The translations under genes and the position numbers were made by a program. DNA of 64,000 bases from an uncultured Actinomycetes bacterium. GTDB taxonomy: Bacteria; Actinomycetota; Actinomycetes; S36-B12; UBA10799. The stretch spans positions 3,295 to 67,294 of the forward strand of contig CAZVKB010000004.1 in NCBI GenBank assembly GCA_964627505.1. Direction: 5' to 3'. A model generated the notes under the pieces. The model saw only the letters and a list, made by a program, of their open reading frames with translations, did not search any database and had not been told where the DNA came from. Of the stretch, positions 29,286-39,643 are shown one piece after another; within the stretch, counting starts at the first letter, position 1; each line of letters opens with the position of its first letter.

Positions 29286-30479
29286 GTGGACTGGTTGTTG
29301 ATTTCTGTTATTGCCATCGTTGCCCTCGCGTTACTTTTTGACTTCACAAACGGGTTTCACGACGCCGCCAACTCGGTCGGCACAGTTGTTGCCACGCGTG
29401 CCTTGCCGGCTCGGTATGCGCCGGCTTTCTCGGCGTTTTTCAACTTCGCGGCGTTGTTCATCGTTGGGACGGCAGTGGCCAACACCGTGGCGAAAACCGT
29501 GGACAAGGACGTGTCCAGCGTCGCGGTAATATTCGCGGCCCTCTTTGCCGCTGTGGTGTGGAACTACCTCACGTGGTGGGTGGGGATGCCGTCCTCGTCC
29601 AGTCACGCCATCCTTGGCGGCTTGGTGGGGGCAGGCGTGGCGGCTGGCTTTCACAAAGGCATCGGTTTCGATGCCATCAATCTGGAGAGCGTGGAGAAAG
29701 CCCTGGTGGGGCTCATCGCCTCCCCCGCAGTGGCAATCGCGATCGCATTTATCGCGATGTACGTCATTTTCCTGATCCAGAAAATCTTCAAGTGGCACGA
29801 CAACCACACCGTCTTCAAGGGCCTACAACTCGTGGCGGCCGCGGGCTTGTCCTTTGGACACGGGGCCAACGATGCCCAGAAGACCATGGGCGTGATCGCC
29901 GCGTTGCTGCTGACCACCGGCTACATCGAAGCGGAAGGAAAGACCGTCGGCGTGCCCATGTGGGTGAAGATCGCCGCGTATTCCGCCATTGCACTTGGCA
30001 CGCTCTGGGGCGGCTGGAAGATCATCGAAACGATGGGCTTGAAGCTGACCACCTTGCACGCCAACTCCGGCGCTGCCGCCAACATCGGATCCACCGTCGC
30101 CATCTTCGGCGCCACAAGTTTCGGCGCTCCGATTTCGACGACGCAAGCGGCTGCCAGTTCAGTCGTCGGCGCCGGCGTGGCCTCCGGAAAAGGTGCCAAC
30201 TGGAAGGTTGTGGGGGAAATGGTGATCGCGTGGATCTTGACGATTCCCGCCGCTGGCCTGGTGGGATTCATCCTCTATTGGCTCACCCAACTACCCACAG
30301 TACTGGCATGGATTGTGGTGGGTGCAATCGTGGTGGTGACAGGTGGGGCGATCATCTGGGCGATGCGCCACTCCATCCACGCCGATGATGTGGAAGCCGA
30401 AATTCCCTCCGAGGAAGAACTCGACGTGACCGAAGTCGAGCTGCACCCGCACCTCAAAGGCAGCGGACCAGTGCATTGA
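29286..30479 (+). CDS. Inorganic phosphate transporter, PiT (PHO4) family
   Basis: Duplicated PiT signature: NGFHDAANSV and GANDAQKTMG. Confidence 0.9.
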   Translation: MDWLLISVIAIVALALLFDFTNGFHDAANSVGTVVATRALPARYAPAFSAFFNFAALFIVGTAVANTVAKTVDKDVSSVAVIFAALFAAVVWNYLTWWVGMPSSSSHAILGGLVGAGVAAGFHKGIGFDAINLESVEKALVGLIASPAVAIAIAFIAMYVIFLIQKIFKWHDNHTVFKGLQLVAAAGLSFGHGANDAQKTMGVIAALLLTTGYIEAEGKTVGVPMWVKIAAYSAIALGTLWGGWKIIETMGLKLTTLHANSGAAANIGSTVAIFGATSFGAPISTTQAAASSVVGAGVASGKGANWKVVGEMVIAWILTIPAAGLVGFILYWLTQLPTVLAWIVVGAIVVVTGGAIIWAMRHSIHADDVEAEIPSEEELDVTEVELHPHLKGSGPVH

Positions 30480-30540
30480 TCTGAACCCAGTTGACACTGC
30501 CGCACAGTGACCAACCATTCGCGGTGCCCGATCGCCAAAT

Positions 30541-31053
30541 GTGGGTGAGGTACCAGCGGTGCGCTTGTCTTCTGCCCATAATGATCCCGTGGACCCTGAC
30601 CCGCCTGCCGCCGACGATGCGCAGCATCGCGCCGAGTCGACGGCCGAGTCTGCTGCATCAGAAGCGTCCGCTGGCGATCGGGAGAACCCCACCACCGAGA
30701 CCGACGACCCGTTTGCTTCACCTCACACACTTCGCCAATGGTCGTTTCTACGCCGGATTCCCCCGCCGGTCCGCAAACCACTGGTCGTCGTCATGGGGGC
30801 GACGCTGATCGTCACCGGCATGTTGCTGGTGGTGTTGCCAGGACCCTTCACCTTGCCGCTGGTGATCGCCGGCGTTGCGATCCTCTCCACTGAGTTTGTC
30901 TGGGCGTCGCGGGTGTTTGCCGTTGGCCATCATCACACCCGCCGATTGCTCGCCAAAACCCGCAACCCGTGGGTGATGGCCGGCCTGATTGTGCTCGGCT
31001 TGGCGCTCGCCGCCACTGGCTATTCGGTGTTCGTCGCGCCACGCCTGAGCTAG
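30541..31053 (+). CDS. PGPGW-domain small membrane protein
   Basis: RRIPPPVRKPLVVVMG...VVLPGPFTLPLVIAGVAILSTEFVWA. The acidic N-terminal tail means the GTG start is uncertain. Confidence 0.6.
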   Translation: MGEVPAVRLSSAHNDPVDPDPPAADDAQHRAESTAESAASEASAGDRENPTTETDDPFASPHTLRQWSFLRRIPPPVRKPLVVVMGATLIVTGMLLVVLPGPFTLPLVIAGVAILSTEFVWASRVFAVGHHHTRRLLAKTRNPWVMAGLIVLGLALAATGYSVFVAPRLS

Positions 31054-31070
31054 TTCTCCAGGACGTGCCG

Positions 31071-32168
31071 TTACCGACTGCGCTCCCCCGGCAACTCACC
31101 GATCCGGTGTGCGTCGGTCGTCTTCTCGTCAGCCGCATGTGCATCCGCCGCGCGGTCGTCCGTTGCGTGGTCGTGCGAACCGATAGCCGCCGGGTTTGGC
31201 TCTGTCTGACCTTCCGGTCCCGGCGCCGGGTCAGCGCCAGCGCTTGCAGTCGGGGCCAGGCCGGCCGTCGCACGCAGGCTCATCACCACACTGATGGCGA
31301 TCACCACCACGACCACAGCCAAACTCAGCAAGGTCGGGATCTTGATGTCGAAGCCCAGCAGCACCATCTTCACACCAACCCAGACCAGCACAATCGACAA
31401 TCCGGTGGTGAGGTAGATGAAGCGATGCATCAGGTCAGCAAGCAGGAAGTACATGGCCCGCAAACCCAAGATGGCGAAGGCATTGGCCGTGAACACCAAG
31501 AAGGGCTCCTGGGTCACCGCGAAGATCGCCGGGATCGAATCCACCGCAAAAATCAGATCGGTGAATTCCACGAGCAGCAACACCAACAGCAGCGGCGTTG
31601 CCAGCCAGACCCCGTTGCGCCGCACCCACATCTTGCCGCCGGCGTAGTCGTCGGTGTGCGGCACTTTGCGTCGGAACCATGTCACCAGCCGCGATTTCCC
31701 GACGTCGTAATGCTCGTTGCGGGATCGGAACATCTTGTACCCGGTGAAGATCAGGAACGCACCGAAGACGTACACGATGAACGACAGATTCGCGATCAGC
31801 ACGGCACCGAGCGCGATGAAGGCCCCGCGCATCACCAGCGCACCGATCACCCCCAGGAACAGCACGCGGTGCTGATATTCGCGCGGCACTGCGAAGTAAC
31901 TGAAGATCAATGCCCACACAAAGACGTTGTCCACAGCCAGCGACTTCTCGATGACATATCCGGAGAAGTATTGGCCGGCAATCTCACCGCCGTACAAGTA
32001 CCACAGAATAGCCCCGAAGGCGACGCCCAGCGCCACCCAGACCGAAGACCACACTGCGGCCTCACGCACCGAAATCACATGCGCCTTCCGGTGGGCGAAC
32101 AGGTCGATGGCAAGCATCAACAGGATGATTCCCAGGACTGCAAACCAGGCCCAAAGCGGCACGTTCAC
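31071..32168 (-). CDS. TerC family integral membrane protein
   Basis: TerC motifs (LAVDNVFVW, FAVDSIPAIFAVT). GTG start with GAGGAG 6 nt upstream. Acidic/His-rich C-terminal tail. Confidence 0.85.
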   Translation of the reverse strand: MNVPLWAWFAVLGIILLMLAIDLFAHRKAHVISVREAAVWSSVWVALGVAFGAILWYLYGGEIAGQYFSGYVIEKSLAVDNVFVWALIFSYFAVPREYQHRVLFLGVIGALVMRGAFIALGAVLIANLSFIVYVFGAFLIFTGYKMFRSRNEHYDVGKSRLVTWFRRKVPHTDDYAGGKMWVRRNGVWLATPLLLVLLLVEFTDLIFAVDSIPAIFAVTQEPFLVFTANAFAILGLRAMYFLLADLMHRFIYLTTGLSIVLVWVGVKMVLLGFDIKIPTLLSLAVVVVVIAISVVMSLRATAGLAPTASAGADPAPGPEGQTEPNPAAIGSHDHATDDRAADAHAADEKTTDAHRIGELPGERSR

Positions 32169-32270
32169 GTAAACTCCTCAATCATGCGGAAGCCGCAAGT
32201 GGCCCGCGCAATACCGACATTGAATGGGTGAACTGGGAATCATGTGTATTTATTCCGCTGTTATGGAACT

Positions 32271-32555
32271 ATGACAACCCGCCCCGCCCGCACCTGGACT
32301 TTCTTCAGTAACCACGGTCACGTCATGATCTTCCTGTCCGGACATCCCGATGCTCGCGTCCGCGACATTGCCCACGCTGTGGGCATCACTGAGCGCGCAA
32401 CCTCCGCGATCCTGCGCGATCTGGAAAACGCCGACTTCGTCACGGTCACGCGCGAAGGCCGACGCAATCACTATCGGATTCACCCTGAACGCACCATGCG
32501 CCACCCGATGGAATCACACCGTGCCATCGGCGAGGTGTTGAACGTGTTCGGATAG
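32271..32555 (+). CDS. Winged helix-turn-helix transcriptional regulator (ArsR/MarR-like)
   Basis: VRDIAHAVGITERATSAILRDLENADFVTVTREGRRNHY. Divergent from terC and upstream of the ABC-like/YhgE pair. Confidence 0.65.
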   Translation: MTTRPARTWTFFSNHGHVMIFLSGHPDARVRDIAHAVGITERATSAILRDLENADFVTVTREGRRNHYRIHPERTMRHPMESHRAIGEVLNVFG

Positions 32556-32589
32556 GACTGGCGGCACCAACAGCAATACCCTTGGCGCC

Positions 32590-33258
32590 ATGGCGACCTA
32601 CCCCCAGCCCGCACCTCCGATCCCGCCGCTGGACGACCCGGCCACGTCGATTTCGGCGGTGTGGGACAACGTCTCGGTCTCAATCCGCGGTCGACGGCTA
32701 TTGCGCGGGTTCAGTCACACGGCTCGTGCTGGCGGCATTCTCGGGGTGATCGGTCCAAGCGGCTCCGACTCCGACATCGTGTTGTCGACACTGGCGGCGC
32801 GTCGCCCGGCCACAGCGGGAAGCGTCACAATCGTCGGCGCCCCGCACAACGTCGCCATCGCTCGGCTGGTTAGTGCGCAGATTGACGATCCCCTCACAAC
32901 TGTTGGGGAATCTCTGCGAGCTGTGACCCCGCGGACCCCGACAGCGAGCCCAACTGAGATTCAGGGTTGGGCCACCTTCACCTCCGGCAGCGTGGACCTC
33001 ACCACTCGGCTCTGGGGCGAACTTGCGCCCGGTCAGCGCGTGCGCGCCGGCTTGGCCTGTGCCTTAGCCAGTGGCGCGACCGTGATTGCGGCCAATGCTG
33101 CCGACGTGAGTGTGCCAGCCGATATCGCCCGCACCTGGCAGGCCATCACCCAAGTCGCAGGTACCGGCAGGCTGGTGTTGGTCGGCTGGCCTACACCAAT
33201 GGCCAACATGTCAGCCACAGCCACCATGTTGGCAGCCACAGTGGAGGTACCTCGATGA
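32590..33258 (+). CDS. ABC ATPase-like protein with degenerate catalytic motifs
   Basis: ABC NBD layout, but Walker A reads GPSGSDSD (no Lys), the signature reads LAPGQ, and the Walker B region reads VIAANAA. The stop overlaps the next start (ATGA). Confidence 0.65.
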   Translation: MATYPQPAPPIPPLDDPATSISAVWDNVSVSIRGRRLLRGFSHTARAGGILGVIGPSGSDSDIVLSTLAARRPATAGSVTIVGAPHNVAIARLVSAQIDDPLTTVGESLRAVTPRTPTASPTEIQGWATFTSGSVDLTTRLWGELAPGQRVRAGLACALASGATVIAANAADVSVPADIARTWQAITQVAGTGRLVLVGWPTPMANMSATATMLAATVEVPR

Positions 33259-35081
33259 CCGCATCCGCCTATTTCGCCAGCATCCGCAGATGGTGGCGCT
33301 CCCCAATCGCCCGCCTCACCATCGTGGGTGCCGTGCTTGCGTCCGGGATCCTCGCTGGGATCATTTCGGCCGCCTTTGCCGACCCGCCAGCCCGCAGCGA
33401 CCGCATTCCCGCCGCTCTGGTCAACGATGACCAACCTGTCAACGTGGAAGGTTTACAGGTACACGCCGGACCCGATCTAGTGCAGGCGGTCCTGGCCGCC
33501 GACGCCCTGGATTGGCGGGAAATGTCGTTGGCAGAGGCAGAATCTGCCCTCAACTCAGGCGCAGTTCTGGCGTTGCTGCACATTCCGACGGGGTACAGCG
33601 CCGCGATCGCGTCCATGGACAGCAGTGCACCGATTCAGGCAACTGCGGAGTTTCGCACCAACGATGCTACGAACTATTTCATGGGGCCCGCCACCGCGGC
33701 GGCTGTAATGTCAGTGGAAGAGACAATCAGCAATTCCGTAACGTTGAACTTCCTCGACGAGGTGTATGCGGCCCTGCCCGAAGCCCGAGAGCAAGGCCAA
33801 GCCGCAGCGGTGGTGGTCGGCCAACTGGTCACTGACATCAACAACACCGCGACAGTGGCCCAGTCTGCGGCAACCGCTGCAACCGAAGCCGCCACCGCCA
33901 GCCAACAGGCGGCAACGAGCATCACAGAAGCCACTGGGGTGGCTGATCAGTCGGCCACCCAAGCTGCCGACTTAGCCGCGAGCACAACTGCGGCTGCTGG
34001 CAGCGCCACCGCGGTTCTGGCTGGCGCAAAATCTGTGGATGCCAGCCTGCAAACATTGCAGAACGATCTCACCAGCAAGGGGCTCACCGATGCTGCTGCC
34101 GCAGTCGGGGCTACCCGGACCAACCTGACGACTTCCGTCACCACTCCCGCCGAAACATTGACTGCCCAAACCGCCGCAGATGCCACCAAAGCCGGGCAAC
34201 TCAATGCCCAGACCGCCGCGGTGCCCCCACTGTTGGCACAAGCGGCGACGCAAACCGCGCAAGCCGTGGGTCAAGGTCAGTCTGCAGCCGCTGCTGCACA
34301 AACGATCAGCACCACTTTGAGCACACAAGTCGCGCCAGCGGCGGCCGGCCTCCAGAACTCGCTCAACGCTGCCGCTGCCAAGGTTCCACCTGTGTCCGCC
34401 GAACAACGCGCGGCGTTTGCGCAAGTACTCGCTGCACCGGTCGCCATCACCACCACCGTGGCCAATGACGTGGCTACTTTCGGCACCGGGATCGCCACCA
34501 TGGTGCTGCCAGTGGCATTGGGCGTCGGGGCGCTGCTGCTGGTCTGGCTGCACCCTGGCCTGCATCGACGGTTGCTCGCTGTCAGCGCCAGCAGTTGGCG
34601 GGTCGGTCTCACCACCTGGTTGCCGACACTCACCTGGAGTGCCGCGCAATCGGTGACAGCTGTGCTGCTTGTGGCGCTGTTCGGCGTCGCGGCCACCGCG
34701 TGGATCCCGCTGCTAGGCGTGCTCATCCTCACTGCTGCCGCGCTCGTGACTCTCACCGCATGGCTTCGGGCAGCATTCGGCGGCATCGGCTTGTACACCG
34801 CTGCTGTGTTGCTTGCGGTGCAGGCAGCGGCCAGTGGTGGGCTGTTCCCGAACCAAACGCTCGGACCAGTGTTCAATTGGCTGCACCCATTCCTACCGAT
34901 GAGTTATGCCGCTGATGCCATTCGTCGCACCATCGCCGGCGGACCGCTGACGCCGTTCGTGTGGGTCGACGTCCTGGTATTAGCCGGATTCACTGCGATC
35001 GGTGTCGGGTTGTTGATCGCCACTGCACACTGGCGTACCAGCGGGCGCACCAGAGACCTGGAACCGCTACCGATGGGTTAA
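33255..35081 (+). CDS. YhgE/Pip domain membrane protein
   Basis: N-terminal TM and a YhgE/Pip N-domain (ALVNDDQPV...LLHIPTGYS). A long Ala/Thr/Gln-rich coiled central region, then a C-terminal ABC-2-like TM bundle. Confidence 0.75.
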   Translation: MTASAYFASIRRWWRSPIARLTIVGAVLASGILAGIISAAFADPPARSDRIPAALVNDDQPVNVEGLQVHAGPDLVQAVLAADALDWREMSLAEAESALNSGAVLALLHIPTGYSAAIASMDSSAPIQATAEFRTNDATNYFMGPATAAAVMSVEETISNSVTLNFLDEVYAALPEAREQGQAAAVVVGQLVTDINNTATVAQSAATAATEAATASQQAATSITEATGVADQSATQAADLAASTTAAAGSATAVLAGAKSVDASLQTLQNDLTSKGLTDAAAAVGATRTNLTTSVTTPAETLTAQTAADATKAGQLNAQTAAVPPLLAQAATQTAQAVGQGQSAAAAAQTISTTLSTQVAPAAAGLQNSLNAAAAKVPPVSAEQRAAFAQVLAAPVAITTTVANDVATFGTGIATMVLPVALGVGALLLVWLHPGLHRRLLAVSASSWRVGLTTWLPTLTWSAAQSVTAVLLVALFGVAATAWIPLLGVLILTAAALVTLTAWLRAAFGGIGLYTAAVLLAVQAAASGGLFPNQTLGPVFNWLHPFLPMSYAADAIRRTIAGGPLTPFVWVDVLVLAGFTAIGVGLLIATAHWRTSGRTRDLEPLPMG

Positions 35082-35115
35082 CTGCGGTCACGGTAGCCAC
35101 GGGTGCGGACCTGGG

Positions 35116-37215
35116 TCAGAGGCTGCTCAACGCCGGCAGTTCCGCCCCCGGGATCGGGTCGAGCCCCACCGCCAACAAGTGCGTGACGTCGCCCTCAGTT
35201 GCCGGGCTGCCCTGCCAGGTGGTGAGGTCGGCCAAAACCTTTCGTCGAGCTTCTTCGGGATCGGGTGCCTGGGCTGCTGCTGTCCAACGGCGGCGCAGTT
35301 CCCATGCGCGCTCTCGGGTCTGCAACGTCCATTTCAGGCGATTCATCTGCGTGGCGGTGGCTGGCAAACGCCACACCTGGGAGATCGCGTCCGGCAGTAC
35401 GATCCGGTAGTCGTGTCCCCCGCCCGCAAACACCCCGGGGGTCGGGGTGAGTGCGTTACCCATGTCGAAGAACGTGGCGAAAAACGTGGTCACCGGCGTC
35501 CACGACGTGCCTTTGGGCGCCCCGACCGGGCGTCGATCCGCCGGTCCGAGCCAGGCGGGACGCCGCCACAGCACGTCGGCATCGAACTTGGGAATGGGAT
35601 CGTCGCCGTTTTGCAGCAGCAGATAACGCACCTGGTCCCGTTCGTCCTCAGACAAGTTGACCCAGTCCATGATGGCGCGCGTGATGAAGACTGGGCCGGG
35701 ACCCACCGGCGGTGGCGTCGCGATGCTGCGGTCACCCTCCAGTTGTTTCTTCCAGACCGTCGCGGCAGGCGTTCCGATCCAGAGTGCAGCTTCGATCCCC
35801 ACACCTTCCAGCCCGAACAGCCCGGTGTCGCGGAACACCTCTTGGGACACCTGGGAGCCCAACGATTCGCCGAAAAGTAGGAACCTGGGACGATCCGCTG
35901 GCGCCATGTCGCGAATGCGGGCCATGATCCCGTCGAGCACCATGCGCGTCTGGTGCACACCTGCGGACACTTTGCCCAACGAGAGCGCCGAGGGCAGCAC
36001 GGAATACTGAATCGCCGCGCTGGCGCAGTCACCACCTGTGAGGTATTCGAGTGCCTCGCACGCCACGTAGTTGACGTATCCCGAACCCGTGGGCGAAAAG
36101 AGGGCGAAGACCTTGCGTTGCAGTGCACCAGTGCGATCGATTTCGGCCAGTAGTTGCGCCGCCCGGGATTCTTCATCAGTCGCTGAGGCCAGTGCCGCGT
36201 ACACCCTAATCGGCTGCTTCGCCCCAGAAATGCCCATGACGGCATCGATGCTCTCCGGACTGGGTGCCATGCTGAGCCAGCGGCGACCTTCCCGGCTCAA
36301 CTGCGCCCACGGTATGCCGGATTCCGGGCACCCAGTCACGGTCGGCGAGGTCGGCGGCTGGGCGTGACCGGGTTCGATCCCCTCGCCGCCCTTCTCCAAC
36401 TTCGCTGACACCAGCGACACTCCCAACCAGCCCAATCCGTAGGTAGTGGCCAGCGCCCCAACCCGTCCGAAAGTGCGATGTTCCTCCGGGTTGCCTCCCA
36501 GCACCACCGCGGCCGCATGCGCGAAAGTCCTCGACAGTGCCACCTCGCCGTGGGCCAGAGCGTACGTCAAACCCGTCACGACGACACCGATCGTGGTTGC
36601 CTGGAGCGGGGCCACCGAACGCGTGGTGTCTTCGAAGTTCTTTCCGTCTTTGCCCTTGGCACCTACTTGAGCCTGCCAGGGCCGGGTGGCCAAGTAGGAC
36701 CCCACGCCGGTGGTGGCAGCCGCAACCAACGTTTCCCACGGTCGATATCTGCTACCGAGCGACTTCTCCAAGCCGAGTGAGGCGACCCCTGCGGTTCCGG
36801 CTGCTGCCAAACTGCCTGCCGCCAGACGGGCGATGGAGCGCCGCGGTGGTTCGTGTTCCCGCCAACGCAGCGCTGTCGCTGCCCCAATTCCCAAGACCGC
36901 CGATGTGACATCAACCGCCAACAGGGCGCGACGGGACGCCGGCGTGCCCGAGAAGCGTCTGGCGATGGATCCCAGCAGTGAATGTCCGGCCGCCCCCCAG
37001 GCATAACCGGCGGCCGCCCCGACGCCGGTTATGACCGCTTGGTTGGTGGTATCGCGGGACAGCAGGCCCGGCTGATACGACCGGCCAGCGAGCACAGCGG
37101 CCACCAGCACGCCCGCTCGGGCGGAGTGGTCGAGGGTATCGGCAGCGATGACAACAGCATCTTCCATAGGCAGATCCTGCCATGACCACCTGATTCGTGG
37201 CTGTGCCCGCGCCAA
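35116..37215 (-). CDS. Membrane-anchored alpha/beta hydrolase family protein (Abhydrolase_9-like), paralog 1
   Basis: N-terminal multi-TM region, then SPTGSGYVNY...LEYLTGGDCA...FGESLGS (nucleophile elbow GxSxG). Clear paralog of 47457-49436. Confidence 0.7.
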   Translation of the reverse strand: MARAQPRIRWSWQDLPMEDAVVIAADTLDHSARAGVLVAAVLAGRSYQPGLLSRDTTNQAVITGVGAAAGYAWGAAGHSLLGSIARRFSGTPASRRALLAVDVTSAVLGIGAATALRWREHEPPRRSIARLAAGSLAAAGTAGVASLGLEKSLGSRYRPWETLVAAATTGVGSYLATRPWQAQVGAKGKDGKNFEDTTRSVAPLQATTIGVVVTGLTYALAHGEVALSRTFAHAAAVVLGGNPEEHRTFGRVGALATTYGLGWLGVSLVSAKLEKGGEGIEPGHAQPPTSPTVTGCPESGIPWAQLSREGRRWLSMAPSPESIDAVMGISGAKQPIRVYAALASATDEESRAAQLLAEIDRTGALQRKVFALFSPTGSGYVNYVACEALEYLTGGDCASAAIQYSVLPSALSLGKVSAGVHQTRMVLDGIMARIRDMAPADRPRFLLFGESLGSQVSQEVFRDTGLFGLEGVGIEAALWIGTPAATVWKKQLEGDRSIATPPPVGPGPVFITRAIMDWVNLSEDERDQVRYLLLQNGDDPIPKFDADVLWRRPAWLGPADRRPVGAPKGTSWTPVTTFFATFFDMGNALTPTPGVFAGGGHDYRIVLPDAISQVWRLPATATQMNRLKWTLQTRERAWELRRRWTAAAQAPDPEEARRKVLADLTTWQGSPATEGDVTHLLAVGLDPIPGAELPALSSL

Positions 37216-37230
37216 ACGGCGGGCGTCGAA

Positions 37231-37518
37231 CTAGAAGTTATTCGTGTAGTACCAGCCGTAGCCGAACGTGTTGACGATCAATCCGATGATGCCCAGCACC
37301 ATGCCCGCAGTGGCCATACCGCCATTGGTCGCCGTACCCATCTGGGCGGCTTTGCGACCTTGCACCCCCAGAATGATCGCCACGATACCCAAAATCAGGC
37401 CGCAGCAGAAGAAACTCAAGATGCCCGTGATCAGCGACCACAGACCCTTCTTGTTGTCAGCGTCTGAGGCGCCGAGCGCCGCGGCACCGTAGATCGGTGG
37501 GGGTGGCGGAGTAGACAT
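37231..37518 (-). CDS. DUF4190-like small membrane protein
   Basis: Pro-rich N-terminus and two TM helices (LITGILSFFCCGLILGIVAIILG; GMVLGIIGLIV). Lies 15 nt upstream of the hydrolase gene. Confidence 0.7.
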   Translation of the reverse strand: MSTPPPPPIYGAAALGASDADNKKGLWSLITGILSFFCCGLILGIVAIILGVQGRKAAQMGTATNGGMATAGMVLGIIGLIVNTFGYGWYYTNNF

Positions 37519-37659
37519 GGCACCATCCTTGTCTCAATCGGCAGTCGGCCCTGTGCGCGACTTGTTGGTGTGGGCAACCTAGCGCAGCGCGCGCAGGATT
37601 TCCGGGCCACACGCGTTTCTCGGGCAAGTGACCTTGCACGCACCGGCTACCGTGCACAG

Positions 37660-38367
37660 ATGGCTGGTCCCGGTGCTCTGCTTGTTCTGACGGCCTACCT
37701 CGCCTGGGGCATCGCCACCAGCCCGCTGCCGATCGCCGGGGTGGCAGTGATGCTGCTCTCCGATCGCGCCAAACGCACGGCAACTGCGTTCACCGCCGCC
37801 TGGTGGATGTGTCAACTCGTGGCTATCTCGGTCTTCGCGGTTGTCGCCCACTACTTGCTGGCGATGCACGTCACAACCGATGAGCGCCGCGCCTTGGCCA
37901 CCGCACTGGCGGTGCTCGGCGTCGCCATGGCCTTCGCAGGTGTCGTCGCAGTTTTGTGGGAACGTTGGCGACCCAACCCGAATTCCGGCGCCCATACCCG
38001 CGCCTTCTTGGCTCGCGCCCAAGTCGCCGGCCCGAGAGATGCAGTGGGGATGGCCTTAGCTACCAGCCTGTTCAACATCACCAATCTGCCGTACTGGGTG
38101 AGCATCGGGCTGTTGATCGAACGCAGTCATGCGGAACTCGCAACTAAGGTGGCGGTTGTCCTCATCACCTCGCTGGTGGCGAGCTCAACATTCTTGGTCA
38201 TCACTGCGGCCGTACTGCTCACCGGAAACCGTCTGCAGCATCGCCTGGAATCGGGAAGGGACTTTCTGGTCCGGCACTCCGGTGGGGTGGTGCCAAGTTT
38301 CTTGATCATCAGCGGACTCGTCCTCATCGTGCTCGCTGGGATGGACCTCGGCTGGTGGCATCTGTGA
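37660..38367 (+). CDS. GAP (Sap-like) family membrane protein
   Basis: Six hydrophobic segments and a GAP-like N-terminus (LAWGIATSPLPIAGV). The start was trimmed to the ATG at 37660. The family call is tentative. Confidence 0.55.
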   Translation: MAGPGALLVLTAYLAWGIATSPLPIAGVAVMLLSDRAKRTATAFTAAWWMCQLVAISVFAVVAHYLLAMHVTTDERRALATALAVLGVAMAFAGVVAVLWERWRPNPNSGAHTRAFLARAQVAGPRDAVGMALATSLFNITNLPYWVSIGLLIERSHAELATKVAVVLITSLVASSTFLVITAAVLLTGNRLQHRLESGRDFLVRHSGGVVPSFLIISGLVLIVLAGMDLGWWHL

Positions 38368-38416
38368 TCCGTCCCCCTTGGTATGAACTCAGCGGCCATG
38401 GGGAACAATAGCCAAC

Positions 38417-39643
38417 ATGCCGCTTGTCACCATCGAACAGCTCAAAGACGTTTTCGGCCGACTCGCCCCTGGGGCCCGGGCAGTCGCATCAGGTAACTTC
38501 GCCACCCCGATGCCCTTGATCTCAGCCCTCGATGAGTCGCTTGAGACCTACACCCTGCACATGCTCAACGCCCATGGCGATTTGCCAGACCGTCCCGGCG
38601 TCACCTTGGAGACTGCGTTTGTGGGCCCTGCCATGCGCAACAAGGCCGGTCTGAGTTATGTCCCCAGCCGACTGTCGATGGTGCCGCTGCTGTATTTCGG
38701 TCCACTGCAACCAGACGTGGTCCTGCTGCACACAACTGTGCCGCGCGATGGCCGCGTGAGTTTGGGGATTGAAGTCAACGTCCTGCCGGCGGCTGTGGAA
38801 GCGGTACGGGCCCGCGGCGGAATCGTCGTCGGCATGATGAACCCTCAGATGCCCTACCTATACGGCGATGCCGAAATGCTCACCGGCCACTTTGACTACC
38901 TGGTTGAAGTTGACACTCCGCTGCCCGCGATCCGTGCCACCGCGCCGGACGAGCGCAGCCGCGCCATCGGGGGCAACGTCGCGGACATGATCGACGACGG
39001 TGCCTGCATGCAGTTGGGTATCGGCGCAGTCCCGGATGCCGTACTGGAGTCCCTGAAGGGGCACCGAGAACTCACCGTGTGGTCGGAAATGATCAGCGAC
39101 GGGGTGCACAGCCTGGAACGCGCTGGCGCATTGAGCAAGAAGCGTCCGATCGTCTCCAGTTTCATCTTTGGTTCCAACGAACTGTACGAGTGGATCGACG
39201 ACAACCACCGGATTCGCATGCTGCGCACCGAGAAGACCAACGATCCGGCGCTGATCGCACGCCATCCTCGGATGACCTCGGTGAACGCCGCCCTGCAAGT
39301 GGACCTGTTCGGTCAAGCCAACGCCAGCTCCATCAAAAACCGCATCTACTCCGGTTTCGGCGGGCAGACCGACTTCATCGTGGGGGCCATGCACGCCCCC
39401 CAAGGGCAGGCCTTCATCGCGCTGTCGTCGATTCATGACAAGTCCGGTTCGTCCAACATCGTGGATGCACTGTCCACCCGCGTCACGAGTTTCCAGCAGA
39501 CCGCGGTGGTCACTGAGCAGGGTGTCGCGCGGTTGTGGGGCTTGAGTCAAGCCGGCCAGGCGCGCGCAATCATCACCCACGCCGCGCATCCCAGCGCCCG
39601 CGACTTTTTGACCCAGCGGGCCGGGGAACTCGGTCTCGGTTAG
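38417..39643 (+). CDS. Acetyl-CoA hydrolase/transferase family protein (4-hydroxybutyrate CoA-transferase-like)
   Basis: GIGAVPDAV and SGFGGQTDF motifs, with typical size. Confidence 0.8.
   Translation: MPLVTIEQLKDVFGRLAPGARAVASGNFATPMPLISALDESLETYTLHMLNAHGDLPDRPGVTLETAFVGPAMRNKAGLSYVPSRLSMVPLLYFGPLQPDVVLLHTTVPRDGRVSLGIEVNVLPAAVEAVRARGGIVVGMMNPQMPYLYGDAEMLTGHFDYLVEVDTPLPAIRATAPDERSRAIGGNVADMIDDGACMQLGIGAVPDAVLESLKGHRELTVWSEMISDGVHSLERAGALSKKRPIVSSFIFGSNELYEWIDDNHRIRMLRTEKTNDPALIARHPRMTSVNAALQVDLFGQANASSIKNRIYSGFGGQTDFIVGAMHAPQGQAFIALSSIHDKSGSSNIVDALSTRVTSFQQTAVVTEQGVARLWGLSQAGQARAIITHAAHPSARDFLTQRAGELGLG

What the first reader, a model, noticed from the sequence alone, without database searches (positions are those of the whole stretch)
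32271..35081. Catalytically degenerate ABC ATPase-like protein translationally coupled to a YhgE/Pip membrane protein, behind an HTH regulator
The 222-aa protein has the order and spacing of an ABC nucleotide-binding domain, but its key residues are replaced. Walker A reads GPSGSDSD instead of GxxGxGK(S/T). The signature reads LAPGQ instead of LSGGQ. In my hand alignment the Walker B Asp-Glu position reads Asn-Ala (VIAANAA), and no H-loop His is evident. Its stop overlaps the start (ATGA at 33255-33258) of a 608-aa YhgE/Pip protein with a long Ala/Thr/Gln-rich coiled central domain. YhgE/Pip proteins are known as phage-infection receptors and as relatives of type VIIb secretion EsaA. A dedicated pseudo-ATPase partner suggests a structural or regulatory role rather than an energising one.
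Basis: partly seen in the sequence, partly recalled or inferred. Interest (0 to 1): 0.55.

Follow-up and report, generated by a model that had tools for sequence, protein, structure and literature searches.

The report
Dead ABC-ATPase partner of YhgE/Pip
A small protein with the fold of an ABC-transporter ATPase but none of its catalytic residues is made together with a YhgE/Pip ("phage infection protein") membrane protein, and the same pairing turned up in every actinobacterial YhgE/Pip locus I sampled, which suggests these poorly understood envelope proteins are ABC-type machines that no longer run on ATP.

Summary
Three + strand genes are present:
- a winged-helix regulator at 32271-32555
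- a 222-aa protein at 32590-33258
- a 608-aa YhgE/Pip protein at 33255-35081

The last two overlap in ATGA, and a GGAGG sits 7 nt upstream of that ATG.

The 222-aa protein has an ABC nucleotide-binding-domain (NBD) fold: AlphaFold pLDDT 84, with best PDB matches ABCG1, LptB and FtsE. Profile alignment puts Ser at the Walker A Lys, Asn-Ala at the Walker B Asp-Glu, and LAPGQ at the signature. It has no Q-loop Gln and no H-loop His.

The pairing is not a local oddity:
- All 15 other actinobacterial YhgE/Pip loci examined carry an NBD-like gene directly upstream.
- None of 55 stand-alone partner sequences has the Walker A Lys, the catalytic Glu or the H-loop His.
- Seven YhgE/Pip loci from Bacillota and Deinococcota have no NBD gene at all.
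- The partner appears to evolve under purifying selection at about the same rate as YhgE.

Best reading: it is a non-catalytic NBD subunit that docks on an ABCG-like YhgE/Pip membrane domain. This is a new variant of a known kind. I found no description of it in the searchable literature.

The parts
32271..32555 (+). Winged-helix (ArsR/SmtB- or MarR-like) transcription regulator of 94 aa. It is probably the first gene of the operon, with 34 nt to the next start codon.
   Evidence: Pfam MarR, MarR_2 and HTH_24 hits at E about 1e-4, all below their cutoffs. NCBIfam HTH_metalloreg scores 38 bits against a cutoff of 55. A 100-aa gene occupies the same position in L001-L004. It is absent in the more distant loci.
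32590..33258 (+). Non-catalytic ABC NBD-fold protein of 222 aa (pseudo-ATPase).
   Evidence: Pfam ABC_tran 24.9 bits. Profile match to PDB chains of the ABCG1 NBD. AlphaFold2 pLDDT 84. Foldseek matches to ABCG1, LptB, FtsE, MacB and CcmA.
32752..32775 (+). Walker A equivalent, GPSGSDSD (residues 55-62). Lys is replaced by Ser and Ser/Thr by Asp.
   Evidence: Alignments; sequence.
33022..33036 (+). Signature-motif equivalent, LAPGQ (residues 145-149).
33082..33099 (+). Walker B equivalent, VIAANA (residues 165-170). Asp is replaced by Asn and the catalytic Glu by Ala.
33243..33258 (+). Translational-coupling junction. A Shine-Dalgarno GGAGG (33243-33247) lies inside the end of the NBD gene, followed by the ATGA stop/start overlap (33255-33258).
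   Evidence: The same GGAGG-N7-8-ATGA junction is present in all six other window-type lineages.
33255..35081 (+). YhgE/Pip family membrane protein of 608 aa.
   Evidence: TIGR03062 scores 136.5 bits and TIGR03061 scores 107.2 bits, both above their cutoffs. Pfam ABC2_membrane_3 scores 59.7 bits.
33255..33371 (+). N-terminal amphipathic helix (residues 2-15) plus TM1 (residues 17-39). This layout is shared with the ABCG-type membrane domains the model matches.
   Evidence: AlphaFold2 secondary structure. N-terminal alignment.
33771..34379 (+). Ala/Thr/Gln-rich extracellular region (residues 173-375) predicted as very long helices.
   Evidence: Composition is 31% Ala, 16% Thr and 10% Gln. Predicted helices span residues 173-274, 278-321 and 323-375. 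Foldseek gives weak matches (E 0.01-0.15) to chemoreceptor coiled coils.
34479..35060 (+). C-terminal five-helix membrane domain of ABC-2 (ABCG-like) fold. It includes the TM2-TM3 cytoplasmic loop HPGLHRRLL with Arg439, which is invariant among the six aligned homologues.
   Evidence: Foldseek matches to the membrane domains of ABCH-9C, ABCG2, ABCG5/8 and ABCG1. Invariant R439. The loop motif is shared by NBD-linked YhgE proteins only.
35116..37215 (-). Convergent 699-aa membrane-anchored alpha/beta hydrolase (Abhydrolase_9). It is a recurrent neighbour, possibly functionally linked, and not part of the invariant core.
   Evidence: Pfam PF10081 scores 198 bits. The same neighbour is present in L003, L004, L005-L007 and L008. 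It is absent in L012 and L014.

Best explanation
The 222-aa protein is a non-catalytic ABC nucleotide-binding-domain (NBD) subunit, a pseudoenzyme. It is made in fixed proportion with the YhgE/Pip protein through a coupled stop/start. It docks on the cytoplasmic face of the ABCG-like YhgE/Pip membrane domain, using the N-terminal amphipathic helix and the TM2-TM3 loop.

The complex has the layout of an ABC-2 half-transporter with a long helical extracellular stalk, but it does not bind or hydrolyse ATP. The NBD-fold subunit acts as a structural or dimerising cap, or as a docking platform for other factors. It is not the motor. The upstream winged-helix protein probably controls the operon in response to a small molecule or metal.

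Shown here:
- the NBD fold
- loss of all catalytic motifs
- the coupled gene junction
- conservation of the pairing
- purifying selection on the partner
- the ABC-2 fold of the membrane domain

Inferred:
- physical docking of the two proteins
- absence of nucleotide binding
- the scaffold or adaptor role
- what the regulator responds to
For: **Fold retained, catalytic motifs gone.**
- AlphaFold2 pLDDT 84.
- Foldseek hits to ABCG1, LptB, FtsE and MacB NBDs at E about 1e-12.
- Motif replacements confirmed.
- Acidic residues occupy the Lys and Ser/Thr positions of the P-loop (GPSGSDSD), which argues against phosphate binding.

**Obligate pairing.**
- The window and six other divergent window-type lineages (26-64% identity) all have the NBD-like gene ending in GGAGG-N7-8-ATGA at the YhgE start.
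- Nine loci from other Actinomycetota also have an NBD-like gene directly upstream of YhgE/Pip. They are Cellulomonas, two Arthrobacter, Rhodococcus, Tsukamurella, Streptomyces, Leucobacter, Demequina and one metagenomic MMPL fusion.

**Motif census.** Of 55 stand-alone partner sequences, 0 have the Walker A Lys, 0 have the catalytic Glu and 0 have the H-loop His.

**Selection.** dN/dS is 0.14-0.27 for the partner and 0.13-0.34 for YhgE in pairs of 62-75% identity. Amino-acid divergence of the two genes is matched across pairs.

**Matching partner fold.**
- The YhgE membrane domain matches ABCG and ABCH membrane domains.
- The NBD-like protein's best sequence and fold match is the ABCG1 NBD.

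**Cytoplasmic motifs.** NBD-linked actinobacterial YhgE proteins share a TM2-TM3 loop motif (RPLxxRxL; HPGLHRRLL in the window) and a C-terminal tail motif. Six of the seven NBD-less YhgE proteins of Bacillota and Deinococcota lack both; the Allomeiothermus protein has a similar tail, RLEPALLS.

**No active partner nearby.** No canonical NBD gene exists anywhere in the 64-kb window.
Against: - No protein-protein, nucleotide-binding or ATPase data exist. Docking is inferred only from homology and gene linkage.
- The AlphaFold models rest on shallow alignments of 11 and 6 sequences. The YhgE model is only moderately confident (pLDDT 73, pTM 0.44).
- dS is near saturation (above 1), so the dN/dS values are rough.
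- Within the window's own clade the signature-like motif L[AST]PGQRVRAGLA is well kept. That would also fit a protein that donates its signature to an active NBD encoded elsewhere.
- The second partner family keeps a highly conserved GSGRTS P-loop and an hhhhDD motif, so some relatives may still bind nucleotide.
- The sample is 16 actinobacterial and 7 non-actinobacterial loci. It is not a census.
Confidence: 0.55

Rival explanations
1. Asymmetric ABC exporter. The dead NBD pairs with a canonical NBD encoded elsewhere in the genome, giving one working ATP site, as in heterodimeric exporters with a degenerate site. The complex would then still be an ATP-driven pump.
For: The window clade keeps a fairly good signature-like motif, L[AST]PGQRVRAGLA, which could complete a partner's Walker A/B site. 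Degenerate sites are well known in ABC exporters (PMC7756269, found).
Against: No canonical NBD ORF lies anywhere in the 64-kb window, nor next to any of the 15 related actinobacterial loci. The one possible exception is an unrelated large ATPase 6 kb away in Cellulomonas. Translational coupling sets the dead NBD at about 1:1 with YhgE, and a homodimeric ABC-2 membrane domain would then carry two dead NBDs. The signature is degenerate in most other family members: LTMAE, LNAME, LNHSM.
Confidence: 0.12
2. Ligand-gated or nucleotide-sensing switch. The NBD-fold protein still binds a nucleotide or another small ligand without hydrolysing it. Binding drives NBD dimerisation, which changes the conformation of the YhgE/Pip membrane and stalk domains.
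For: The second partner family has a strictly conserved non-canonical motif set, GxRGSGRTS, hhhhDD and DxVKD. That pattern looks like a maintained binding site rather than decay. An MMPL-fused relative keeps the Walker A Lys and an H-loop His.
Against: In the window's family the P-loop is not conserved at all at the Lys position, which is Ser, Leu or Met, and in the window's own clade the P-loop carries acidic residues. This makes nucleotide binding unlikely for the protein in question.
Confidence: 0.2
3. Decaying relic. The gene is a non-functional remnant of a former ATPase that is drifting toward loss, as has already happened in Bacillota and Deinococcota.
For: The catalytic motifs are gone. 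YhgE/Pip proteins of other phyla have no NBD gene nearby. The partner is highly divergent between lineages, at about 20% identity.
Against: The reading frame is intact and its length is kept (about 200-240 aa) across lineages down to 26% identity. dN/dS is about 0.14-0.27, similar to YhgE. The fold is predicted confidently. The coupled junction is conserved.
Confidence: 0.05
4. Residual ATPase through non-canonical residues. The protein still energises transport using unrecognised catalytic residues.
For: None directly. It cannot be excluded by sequence alone.
Against: Walker A Lys, Walker B Asp and Glu, Q-loop Gln and H-loop His are all replaced at once, and the replacements differ between close relatives.
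Confidence: 0.05

Closest known systems
ABC-2 / type V ABC exporters (ABCG1, ABCG2, ABCH-9C, TarGH, PmtCD)
   Same: The NBD-like protein's best sequence and fold match is the ABCG1 NBD. The YhgE membrane domain matches ABCG and ABCH membrane domains. The gene order is NBD then permease, as in many ABC-2 operons.
   Different: All catalytic NBD motifs are absent. About 360 residues of extracellular domain and helical stalk are inserted after TM1. No evidence for a transported substrate exists.
YhgE/Pip 'phage infection proteins' of Bacillota (L. lactis Pip, B. subtilis YhgE, E. faecalis PIP_EF; PMC4999554)
   Same: Same curated family (TIGR03061 and TIGR03062 above their cutoffs). Same topology. 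Often sits beside a small transcription regulator.
   Different: None of the seven sampled non-actinobacterial loci has an NBD-like gene within 3-4 kb. Their TM2-TM3 loops lack the motif shared by the actinobacterial proteins, and only the Allomeiothermus protein has a similar C-terminal tail. A phage-receptor role is unknown for the window protein.
EsaA/YueB of the type VIIb secretion system (bioRxiv 10.1101/2020.08.17.254201)
   Same: Related N-terminal domain (TIGR03929 E 2e-12) and a long helical extracellular stalk.
   Different: The score of 47 bits is far below the cutoff of 122. No type VII secretion genes were seen among the flanking genes examined (about 27.9-39.6 kb). EsaA is not known to pair with an ABC NBD.
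Heterodimeric ABC exporters with one degenerate ATP site (TM287/288, TmrAB, CFTR; review PMC7756269)
   Same: Non-consensus substitutions at the Walker B Glu, the H-loop and the signature are tolerated in a functional ABC protein.
   Different: In those proteins one site stays catalytic and the degenerate site still binds ATP. Here the only NBD present has lost the P-loop Lys as well, so both sites of a homodimer would be dead.
Actinobacterial 'ATP-binding cassette domain-containing protein' partners of YhgE/Pip (Cellulomonas, Demequina, Leucobacter, Streptomyces, Rhodococcus)
   Same: Same position directly upstream of YhgE/Pip, same NBD fold family, and the same lack of Walker A Lys, catalytic Glu and H-loop His.
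   Different: Only about 20% identical to the window protein. These proteins keep a conserved GxRGSGRTS P-loop and an hhhhDD motif. Their operon ends with a TetR gene rather than starting with an ArsR/MarR-like gene.

Membership tests
ABC transporter nucleotide-binding domain (Pfam PF00005 ABC_tran) | RecA-like plus helical subdomain NBD fold | tested here: met
   AlphaFold2 pLDDT 84. Foldseek probability 1.00 and TM 0.6-0.7 to ABCG1, LptB, FtsE, MacB and CcmA.
ABC transporter nucleotide-binding domain (Pfam PF00005 ABC_tran) | Score above the Pfam gathering threshold | tested here: not met
   24.9 bits against a cutoff of 25.0, E 3.3e-5. No NCBIfam model comes near its cutoff.
ABC transporter nucleotide-binding domain (Pfam PF00005 ABC_tran) | Walker A GxxGxGK(S/T) | tested here: not met
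   GPSGSDSD. Lys is replaced by Ser and Ser/Thr by Asp.
ABC transporter nucleotide-binding domain (Pfam PF00005 ABC_tran) | Walker B hhhhD followed by the catalytic Glu | tested here: not met
   VIAANA. Asp is replaced by Asn and Glu by Ala.
ABC transporter nucleotide-binding domain (Pfam PF00005 ABC_tran) | Signature LSGGQ, Q-loop Gln and H-loop His | tested here: not met
   LAPGQ. The Q-loop position is Ser. No His follows Walker B.
ABC transporter nucleotide-binding domain (Pfam PF00005 ABC_tran) | ATP binding and hydrolysis | not testable with these tools
   Requires purified protein.
YhgE/Pip family (TIGR03061 + TIGR03062) | Both N-terminal and C-terminal domain models above their curated cutoffs | tested here: met
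   107.2 bits against 96.15, and 136.5 bits against 102.2.
YhgE/Pip family (TIGR03061 + TIGR03062) | Topology: one N-terminal TM, a large extracellular region, and five C-terminal TMs | tested here: met
   AlphaFold2 secondary structure. This is a prediction only.
YhgE/Pip family (TIGR03061 + TIGR03062) | Serves as a phage receptor | not testable with these tools
   Host is uncultured and no phage data exist.
ABC-2 type (type V) ABC exporter complex | ABC-2 membrane-domain fold | tested here: met
   PF12698 scores 59.7 bits against a cutoff of 31.6. Foldseek matches ABCH-9C and ABCG2/5/8/1 membrane domains.
ABC-2 type (type V) ABC exporter complex | Catalytically competent NBD partner | tested here: not met
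   The only NBD-like ORF in the 64-kb window is the degenerate one.
EsaA (type VIIb secretion) | TIGR03929 above its cutoff, and neighbouring T7SSb genes | tested here: not met
   47.1 bits against a cutoff of 122. The flanking genes are TerC, PHO4, FUSC, Abhydrolase_9 and DUF4190.
ArsR/SmtB or MarR winged-helix regulators (HTH gene) | Score above a curated family cutoff | tested here: inconclusive
   HTH_metalloreg scores 38 bits against 55. MarR scores 22.4 bits against 24.6. It is a winged helix, but the subfamily is unresolved.
Known anti-phage defence systems (PADLOC) | Match to any defence-system protein model | tested here: not met
   No hits for the NBD-like protein, YhgE or the hydrolase. 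The HTH protein gives only generic winged-helix hits.

The most novel reading that the evidence does not exclude
YhgE/Pip proteins as a whole descend from ABC-2 exporters that have given up ATP. Actinomycetota keep the NBD as an obligatory pseudoenzyme subunit that has been repurposed as a cytoplasmic adaptor. In at least one lineage it is fused to an MmpL-type proton-driven transporter. It would then couple another energy source or an export machine to an envelope-spanning YhgE/Pip stalk. Bacillota and Deinococcota have lost it altogether. The partner sequences would form a degeneration series: Walker A Lys, then Arg, then no P-loop.
Probability: 0.25. Interest if true: 0.75.

Novelty: new variant of a known kind. 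Interest (0 to 1): 0.55.

Why it matters
YhgE/Pip proteins are widespread in Gram-positive bacteria. They are known mainly because phages exploit them as receptors, and their own function is unresolved.

This finding shows that actinobacterial versions always come with an NBD-fold subunit that cannot work as a conventional ATPase. It gives three things:
- an evolutionary origin for the family, as an ABC-2 exporter
- a rare example of a free-standing, fully dead ABC NBD kept by selection
- a concrete, testable handle on function, through partner pull-downs and deletions in culturable Streptomyces, Rhodococcus or Cellulomonas

It also warns that 'ATP-binding cassette domain-containing protein' annotations next to YhgE/Pip genes should not be read as evidence for ATP-driven transport.

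Tried and rejected
1. **Genome scan with the four-sequence NBD alignment.** It found no relatives. The window's lineage is absent from the species representatives. The later scan with a YhgE alignment found only 38-39% relatives in uncultured Actinomycetota MAGs.
2. **Six-sequence YhgE alignment as a scan query.** It was too diverse to use.
3. **Word-indexed homology searches.** They returned very few hits for both proteins. The Ala/Thr/Gln-rich region probably swamped the candidate list for YhgE.
4. **Search for a canonical NBD paired with YhgE/Pip.** The closest canonical NBDs, P0244 and P0199, sit beside ordinary small ABC-2 permeases of about 250 aa. My recollection that DptN of the daptomycin cluster is YhgE/Pip-like could not be verified from PMC9113097, so I dropped it.
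5. **Rfam scan of 30000-38500.** I was looking for, among others, a yybP-ykoY riboswitch ahead of TerC. There were no hits at E <= 0.1.
6. **Promoter, terminator and inverted-repeat scans of 32000-35300.** They showed nothing above chance. No operator could be proposed.
7. **PADLOC defence-system models.** No meaningful hits.
8. **Abhydrolase_9 as a core component.** I rejected this as invariant because it is absent from L012 and L014.
9. **Literature searches for an NBD partner of YhgE/Pip.** They found nothing relevant.


Full report
**1. What is in the sequence**

The region holds three co-directional genes on the + strand:
- a 94-aa winged-helix protein at 32271-32555
- a 222-aa protein at 32590-33258
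- a 608-aa protein at 33255-35081

The last two overlap in ATGA (33255-33258). A GGAGG at 33243-33247 lies 7 nt before the ATG. The gap between the first two genes is 34 nt.

Upstream, a TerC gene runs divergently (31071-32168, - strand). Downstream, a 699-aa Abhydrolase_9 membrane hydrolase converges (35116-37215, - strand).

The 608-aa protein passes both curated YhgE/Pip domain models (TIGR03062 136.5 bits, TIGR03061 107.2 bits) and Pfam ABC2_membrane_3. Its match to the EsaA N-terminal model is far below cutoff, at 47 bits against 122. The regulator matches ArsR/SmtB and MarR models only below their cutoffs.

**2. The 222-aa protein is an ABC NBD without a catalytic site**

Pfam ABC_tran matches at 24.9 bits, a hair below the 25-bit threshold. 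A profile of the protein and its three closest relatives finds PDB ABC NBDs, with ABCG1 the best match at E 1.2e-5.

That alignment, and an independent one to an HMM built from 43 canonical single-domain NBDs, agree on every motif.

| Motif | Canonical | Window protein |
|---|---|---|
| Walker A | GxxGxGK(S/T) | GPSGSDSD (Lys to Ser, Ser/Thr to Asp) |
| Q-loop | Gln | Ser |
| Signature | LSGGQ | LAPGQ |
| Walker B | hhhhD then Glu | VIAANA (Asp to Asn, Glu to Ala) |
| H-loop | His | none; no His after residue 86 |

An AlphaFold2 model built on 11 family sequences is confident (pLDDT 84.1, pTM 0.81). It matches solved NBDs of ABCG1, LptB, FtsE, MacB, CcmA and LolD at Foldseek E about 1e-12 and TM 0.6-0.7.

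**3. The pairing is conserved, not a local accident**

*The window's own family.*
- An exhaustive HMMER search of 1.84 billion representative proteins found only about nine close relatives, at 26-40% identity and about 200-230 aa.
- A profile search added about ten more.
- All come from metagenomes or MAGs labelled only Actinomycetota or Actinobacteria.
- Wherever context was available, the gene lies directly upstream of a YhgE homologue. This holds for six further lineages: L001-4, L005-7, L008/9, L012, L013 and L014.
- In all of them the junction is GGAGG-N7-8-ATGA. This also explains the conserved Glu-Val near the protein's C-terminus, since GAG-GTn encodes part of the ribosome-binding site.

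*Other Actinomycetota.* YhgE/Pip loci again have an NBD-like gene directly upstream:
- Cellulomonas iranensis
- Arthrobacter (two strains)
- Rhodococcus erythropolis
- Tsukamurella tyrosinosolvens
- Streptomyces sp.
- Leucobacter tenebrionis
- Demequina capsici

These genes are annotated 'ATP-binding cassette domain-containing protein', 'ABC transporter ATP-binding protein' or 'hypothetical protein'. They are only about 20% identical to the window protein. Most carry a different, strongly conserved non-canonical motif set: GxRGSGRTS, hhhhDD and DxVKD.

*Motif census over 55 stand-alone partner sequences.*

| Position | Canonical residue present | What is found instead |
|---|---|---|
| Walker A Lys | 0 of 55 | Arg 32, Leu 17, others 6 |
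| Catalytic Glu | 0 of 55 | Asp 31, others 24 |
| H-loop His | 0 of 55 | - |
| Q-loop Gln | 1 of 55 | - |

*Other phyla.* Seven YhgE/Pip loci from Bacillota and Deinococcota contain no NBD-like ORF within 3-4 kb, by six-frame HMM scan. Their annotation shows only regulators or unrelated genes beside YhgE.

*Nearest canonical NBDs.* The closest canonical NBDs to the profile sit beside ordinary 240-250-aa ABC-2 permeases, not YhgE.

**4. The partner is under selection and matches the YhgE membrane domain**

For gene pairs of 62-75% amino-acid identity, dN/dS is 0.14-0.27 for the NBD-like gene and 0.13-0.34 for yhgE. The two genes show nearly equal divergence across lineage pairs. dS is close to saturation, so these are rough figures, but the gene is clearly not drifting.

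The YhgE model has pLDDT 73 and shows the following layout:
- an N-terminal amphipathic helix (residues 2-15)
- TM1 (residues 17-39)
- an alpha/beta domain (residues 52-136)
- three very long helices (residues 173-375; 31% Ala, 16% Thr, 10% Gln)
- five C-terminal TM helices

Foldseek matches the membrane part to ABCH-9C, ABCG2, ABCG5/8 and ABCG1, and matches the alpha/beta domain to a Thermotoga ABC-2 transporter domain. Both proteins thus point to the same ancestor, an ABCG-like (ABC-2, type V) half-transporter.

NBD-linked actinobacterial YhgE proteins share a TM2-TM3 loop motif (RPLxxRxL; HPGLHRRLL here, with Arg439 invariant) and a C-terminal tail motif. The NBD-less YhgE proteins lack the loop motif, and only the Allomeiothermus protein has a similar tail. 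This is what one would expect if those cytoplasmic elements are the docking sites. That last step is an inference.

**5. Mechanism**

Best explanation (confidence 0.55): the 222-aa protein is a non-catalytic NBD-fold subunit made stoichiometrically with YhgE. It docks on the cytoplasmic face of YhgE and acts as a structural cap or adaptor. The complex is not an ATP-driven pump.

Rivals:
- *Nucleotide- or ligand-sensing switch (0.2).* This is plausible for the GSGRTS family but unlikely here, because the P-loop is unconserved and acidic in the window's own clade.
- *Asymmetric pump with a canonical NBD encoded elsewhere (0.12).* The signature-like LxPGQRVRAGLA is well kept in the window clade. 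However, no canonical NBD lies in the 64-kb window or in any related locus.
- *Decaying relic (0.05).* This is contradicted by selection and by the conserved junction.
- *Cryptic ATPase (0.05).*

The linked regulators are ArsR/MarR-like here, TetR in Micrococcales and Streptomyces, and MarR, TetR, Rrf2 or LysR in other phyla. They suggest expression responds to small molecules. The substrate or signal is unknown.

**6. An unexpected relative**

In a metagenomic locus (L031), the YhgE homologue P0157 is preceded by a 969-aa fusion of an MMPL (MmpL-type RND) transporter with a C-terminal NBD, with a 4-bp overlap. That NBD has these features:
- It keeps the Walker A Lys (GPSGSGKT) and an H-loop His.
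- It has hhhhDD at Walker B and LTPLQ at the signature.
- It is closest to the GSGRTS partners, at 32-36% identity.

This suggests a degeneration series from Lys to Arg to no P-loop. It also hints that the NBD fold can tether another membrane machine to YhgE/Pip. A published table lists adjacent, co-induced YhgE/Pip and MMPL genes in Saccharopolyspora hirsuta (PMC9782250). The window has no MMPL gene.

**7. Comparison with what is known, and novelty**

The system works like, and descends from, an ABC-2 exporter. It fails the defining catalytic tests for an ABC ATPase. The membrane protein is a bona fide YhgE/Pip member and is not EsaA.

Degenerate ATP sites are well known in heterodimeric exporters (PMC7756269), but there one site stays active and the degenerate site still binds ATP. 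I found no paper describing an NBD partner of YhgE/Pip, dead or alive. No curated Pfam, NCBIfam or PADLOC family covers the partner.

I rate this a new variant of a known kind, with interest 0.55. It is not spectacular. It is a clean, general and apparently undescribed pattern that makes the long-unclear function of YhgE/Pip proteins more testable.

**8. Limits**

- All functional statements are inferred.
- The models rest on shallow alignments.
- The survey covers 16 actinobacterial and 7 other loci, not a census.
- The host is an uncultured actinobacterium known only from metagenome contigs.

Noticed in passing
L031:1095-4004 (+) and L031:4001-6037 (+): A 969-aa fusion of an MMPL (MmpL-type RND) transporter with a C-terminal ABC NBD overlaps by 4 bp the start of a YhgE/Pip homologue, with a divergent TetR gene upstream. 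Its NBD keeps the Walker A Lys and an H-loop His but has hhhhDD and LTPLQ. It is closest to the GSGRTS partner family.
   Followed up: partly
window 33243-33258; also the junctions of L004, L005, L009, L012, L013 and L014: GGAGG lies 7-8 nt before an ATGA stop/start overlap in every window-type locus. The invariant Glu (and usual Val) near the C-terminus of the NBD-like protein is probably conserved because GAG-GTn forms the ribosome-binding site of yhgE, not for protein function.
   Followed up: yes
P0167-P0195; L010:5146-5973, L026:5001-5936, L027:5001-5813, L028:5001-5714: A second, much larger family of YhgE-linked NBD-like proteins occurs in Micrococcales and Streptomyces. It has a strictly conserved non-canonical motif set (GxRGSGRTS, hhhhDD, DxVKD) and a downstream TetR gene. 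The conservation looks like a maintained, possibly nucleotide-binding but non-hydrolytic, site.
   Followed up: partly
window 35116-37215 (-); L004:3839-5881, L005:7849-10011, L008:2136-4181: A convergent membrane-anchored Abhydrolase_9 (PF10081) gene follows yhgE in the window and in relatives down to about 40% identity, where the upstream genes differ. It is missing in L012 and L014. This could be a functional link or simply retained synteny.
   Followed up: partly
window 34530-34560 (YhgE residues ~426-447) and the C-terminal tail; alignment: Actinobacterial, NBD-linked YhgE proteins share a TM2-TM3 loop motif (RPLxxRxL) and a C-terminal L-x-P-E-[LI] tail. NBD-less YhgE proteins of Bacillota and Deinococcus lack both; the Allomeiothermus protein has a similar tail, RLEPALLS. 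These are candidate NBD-docking elements.
   Followed up: partly
L017:2452-3480 (Arthrobacter sp. ERGS1:01): The NBD-like partner here is 342 aa long because of a C-terminal Pro/Glu/Thr/Val-rich tail with tandem 'VELVETPS' repeats. It is annotated 'ABC transporter ATP-binding protein' despite lacking the Walker A Lys and the catalytic Glu.
   Followed up: no
cluster 1 (window 33255-35078): The 90%-identity cluster holding the 608-aa YhgE protein also contains 29-41-aa 'small lipoprotein YifL' sequences from unrelated bacteria. This is presumably a clustering artefact of the low-complexity Ala/Thr/Gln region. The same region probably limited the word-indexed homology search.
   Followed up: no
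window 31071-32270: The divergent TerC-family gene has no detectable yybP-ykoY (manganese) riboswitch or any other Rfam match in its leader. No promoter-like or operator-like repeat was found in the shared 100-nt intergenic region.
   Followed up: yes
whole window; L012-L014: The window's organism has no close relative among the GTDB species representatives. The nearest YhgE loci are 38-39% identical and lie in MAGs labelled only Actinomycetota. Identical proteins occur on about 30 metagenome contigs of up to 70 kb.
   Followed up: partly
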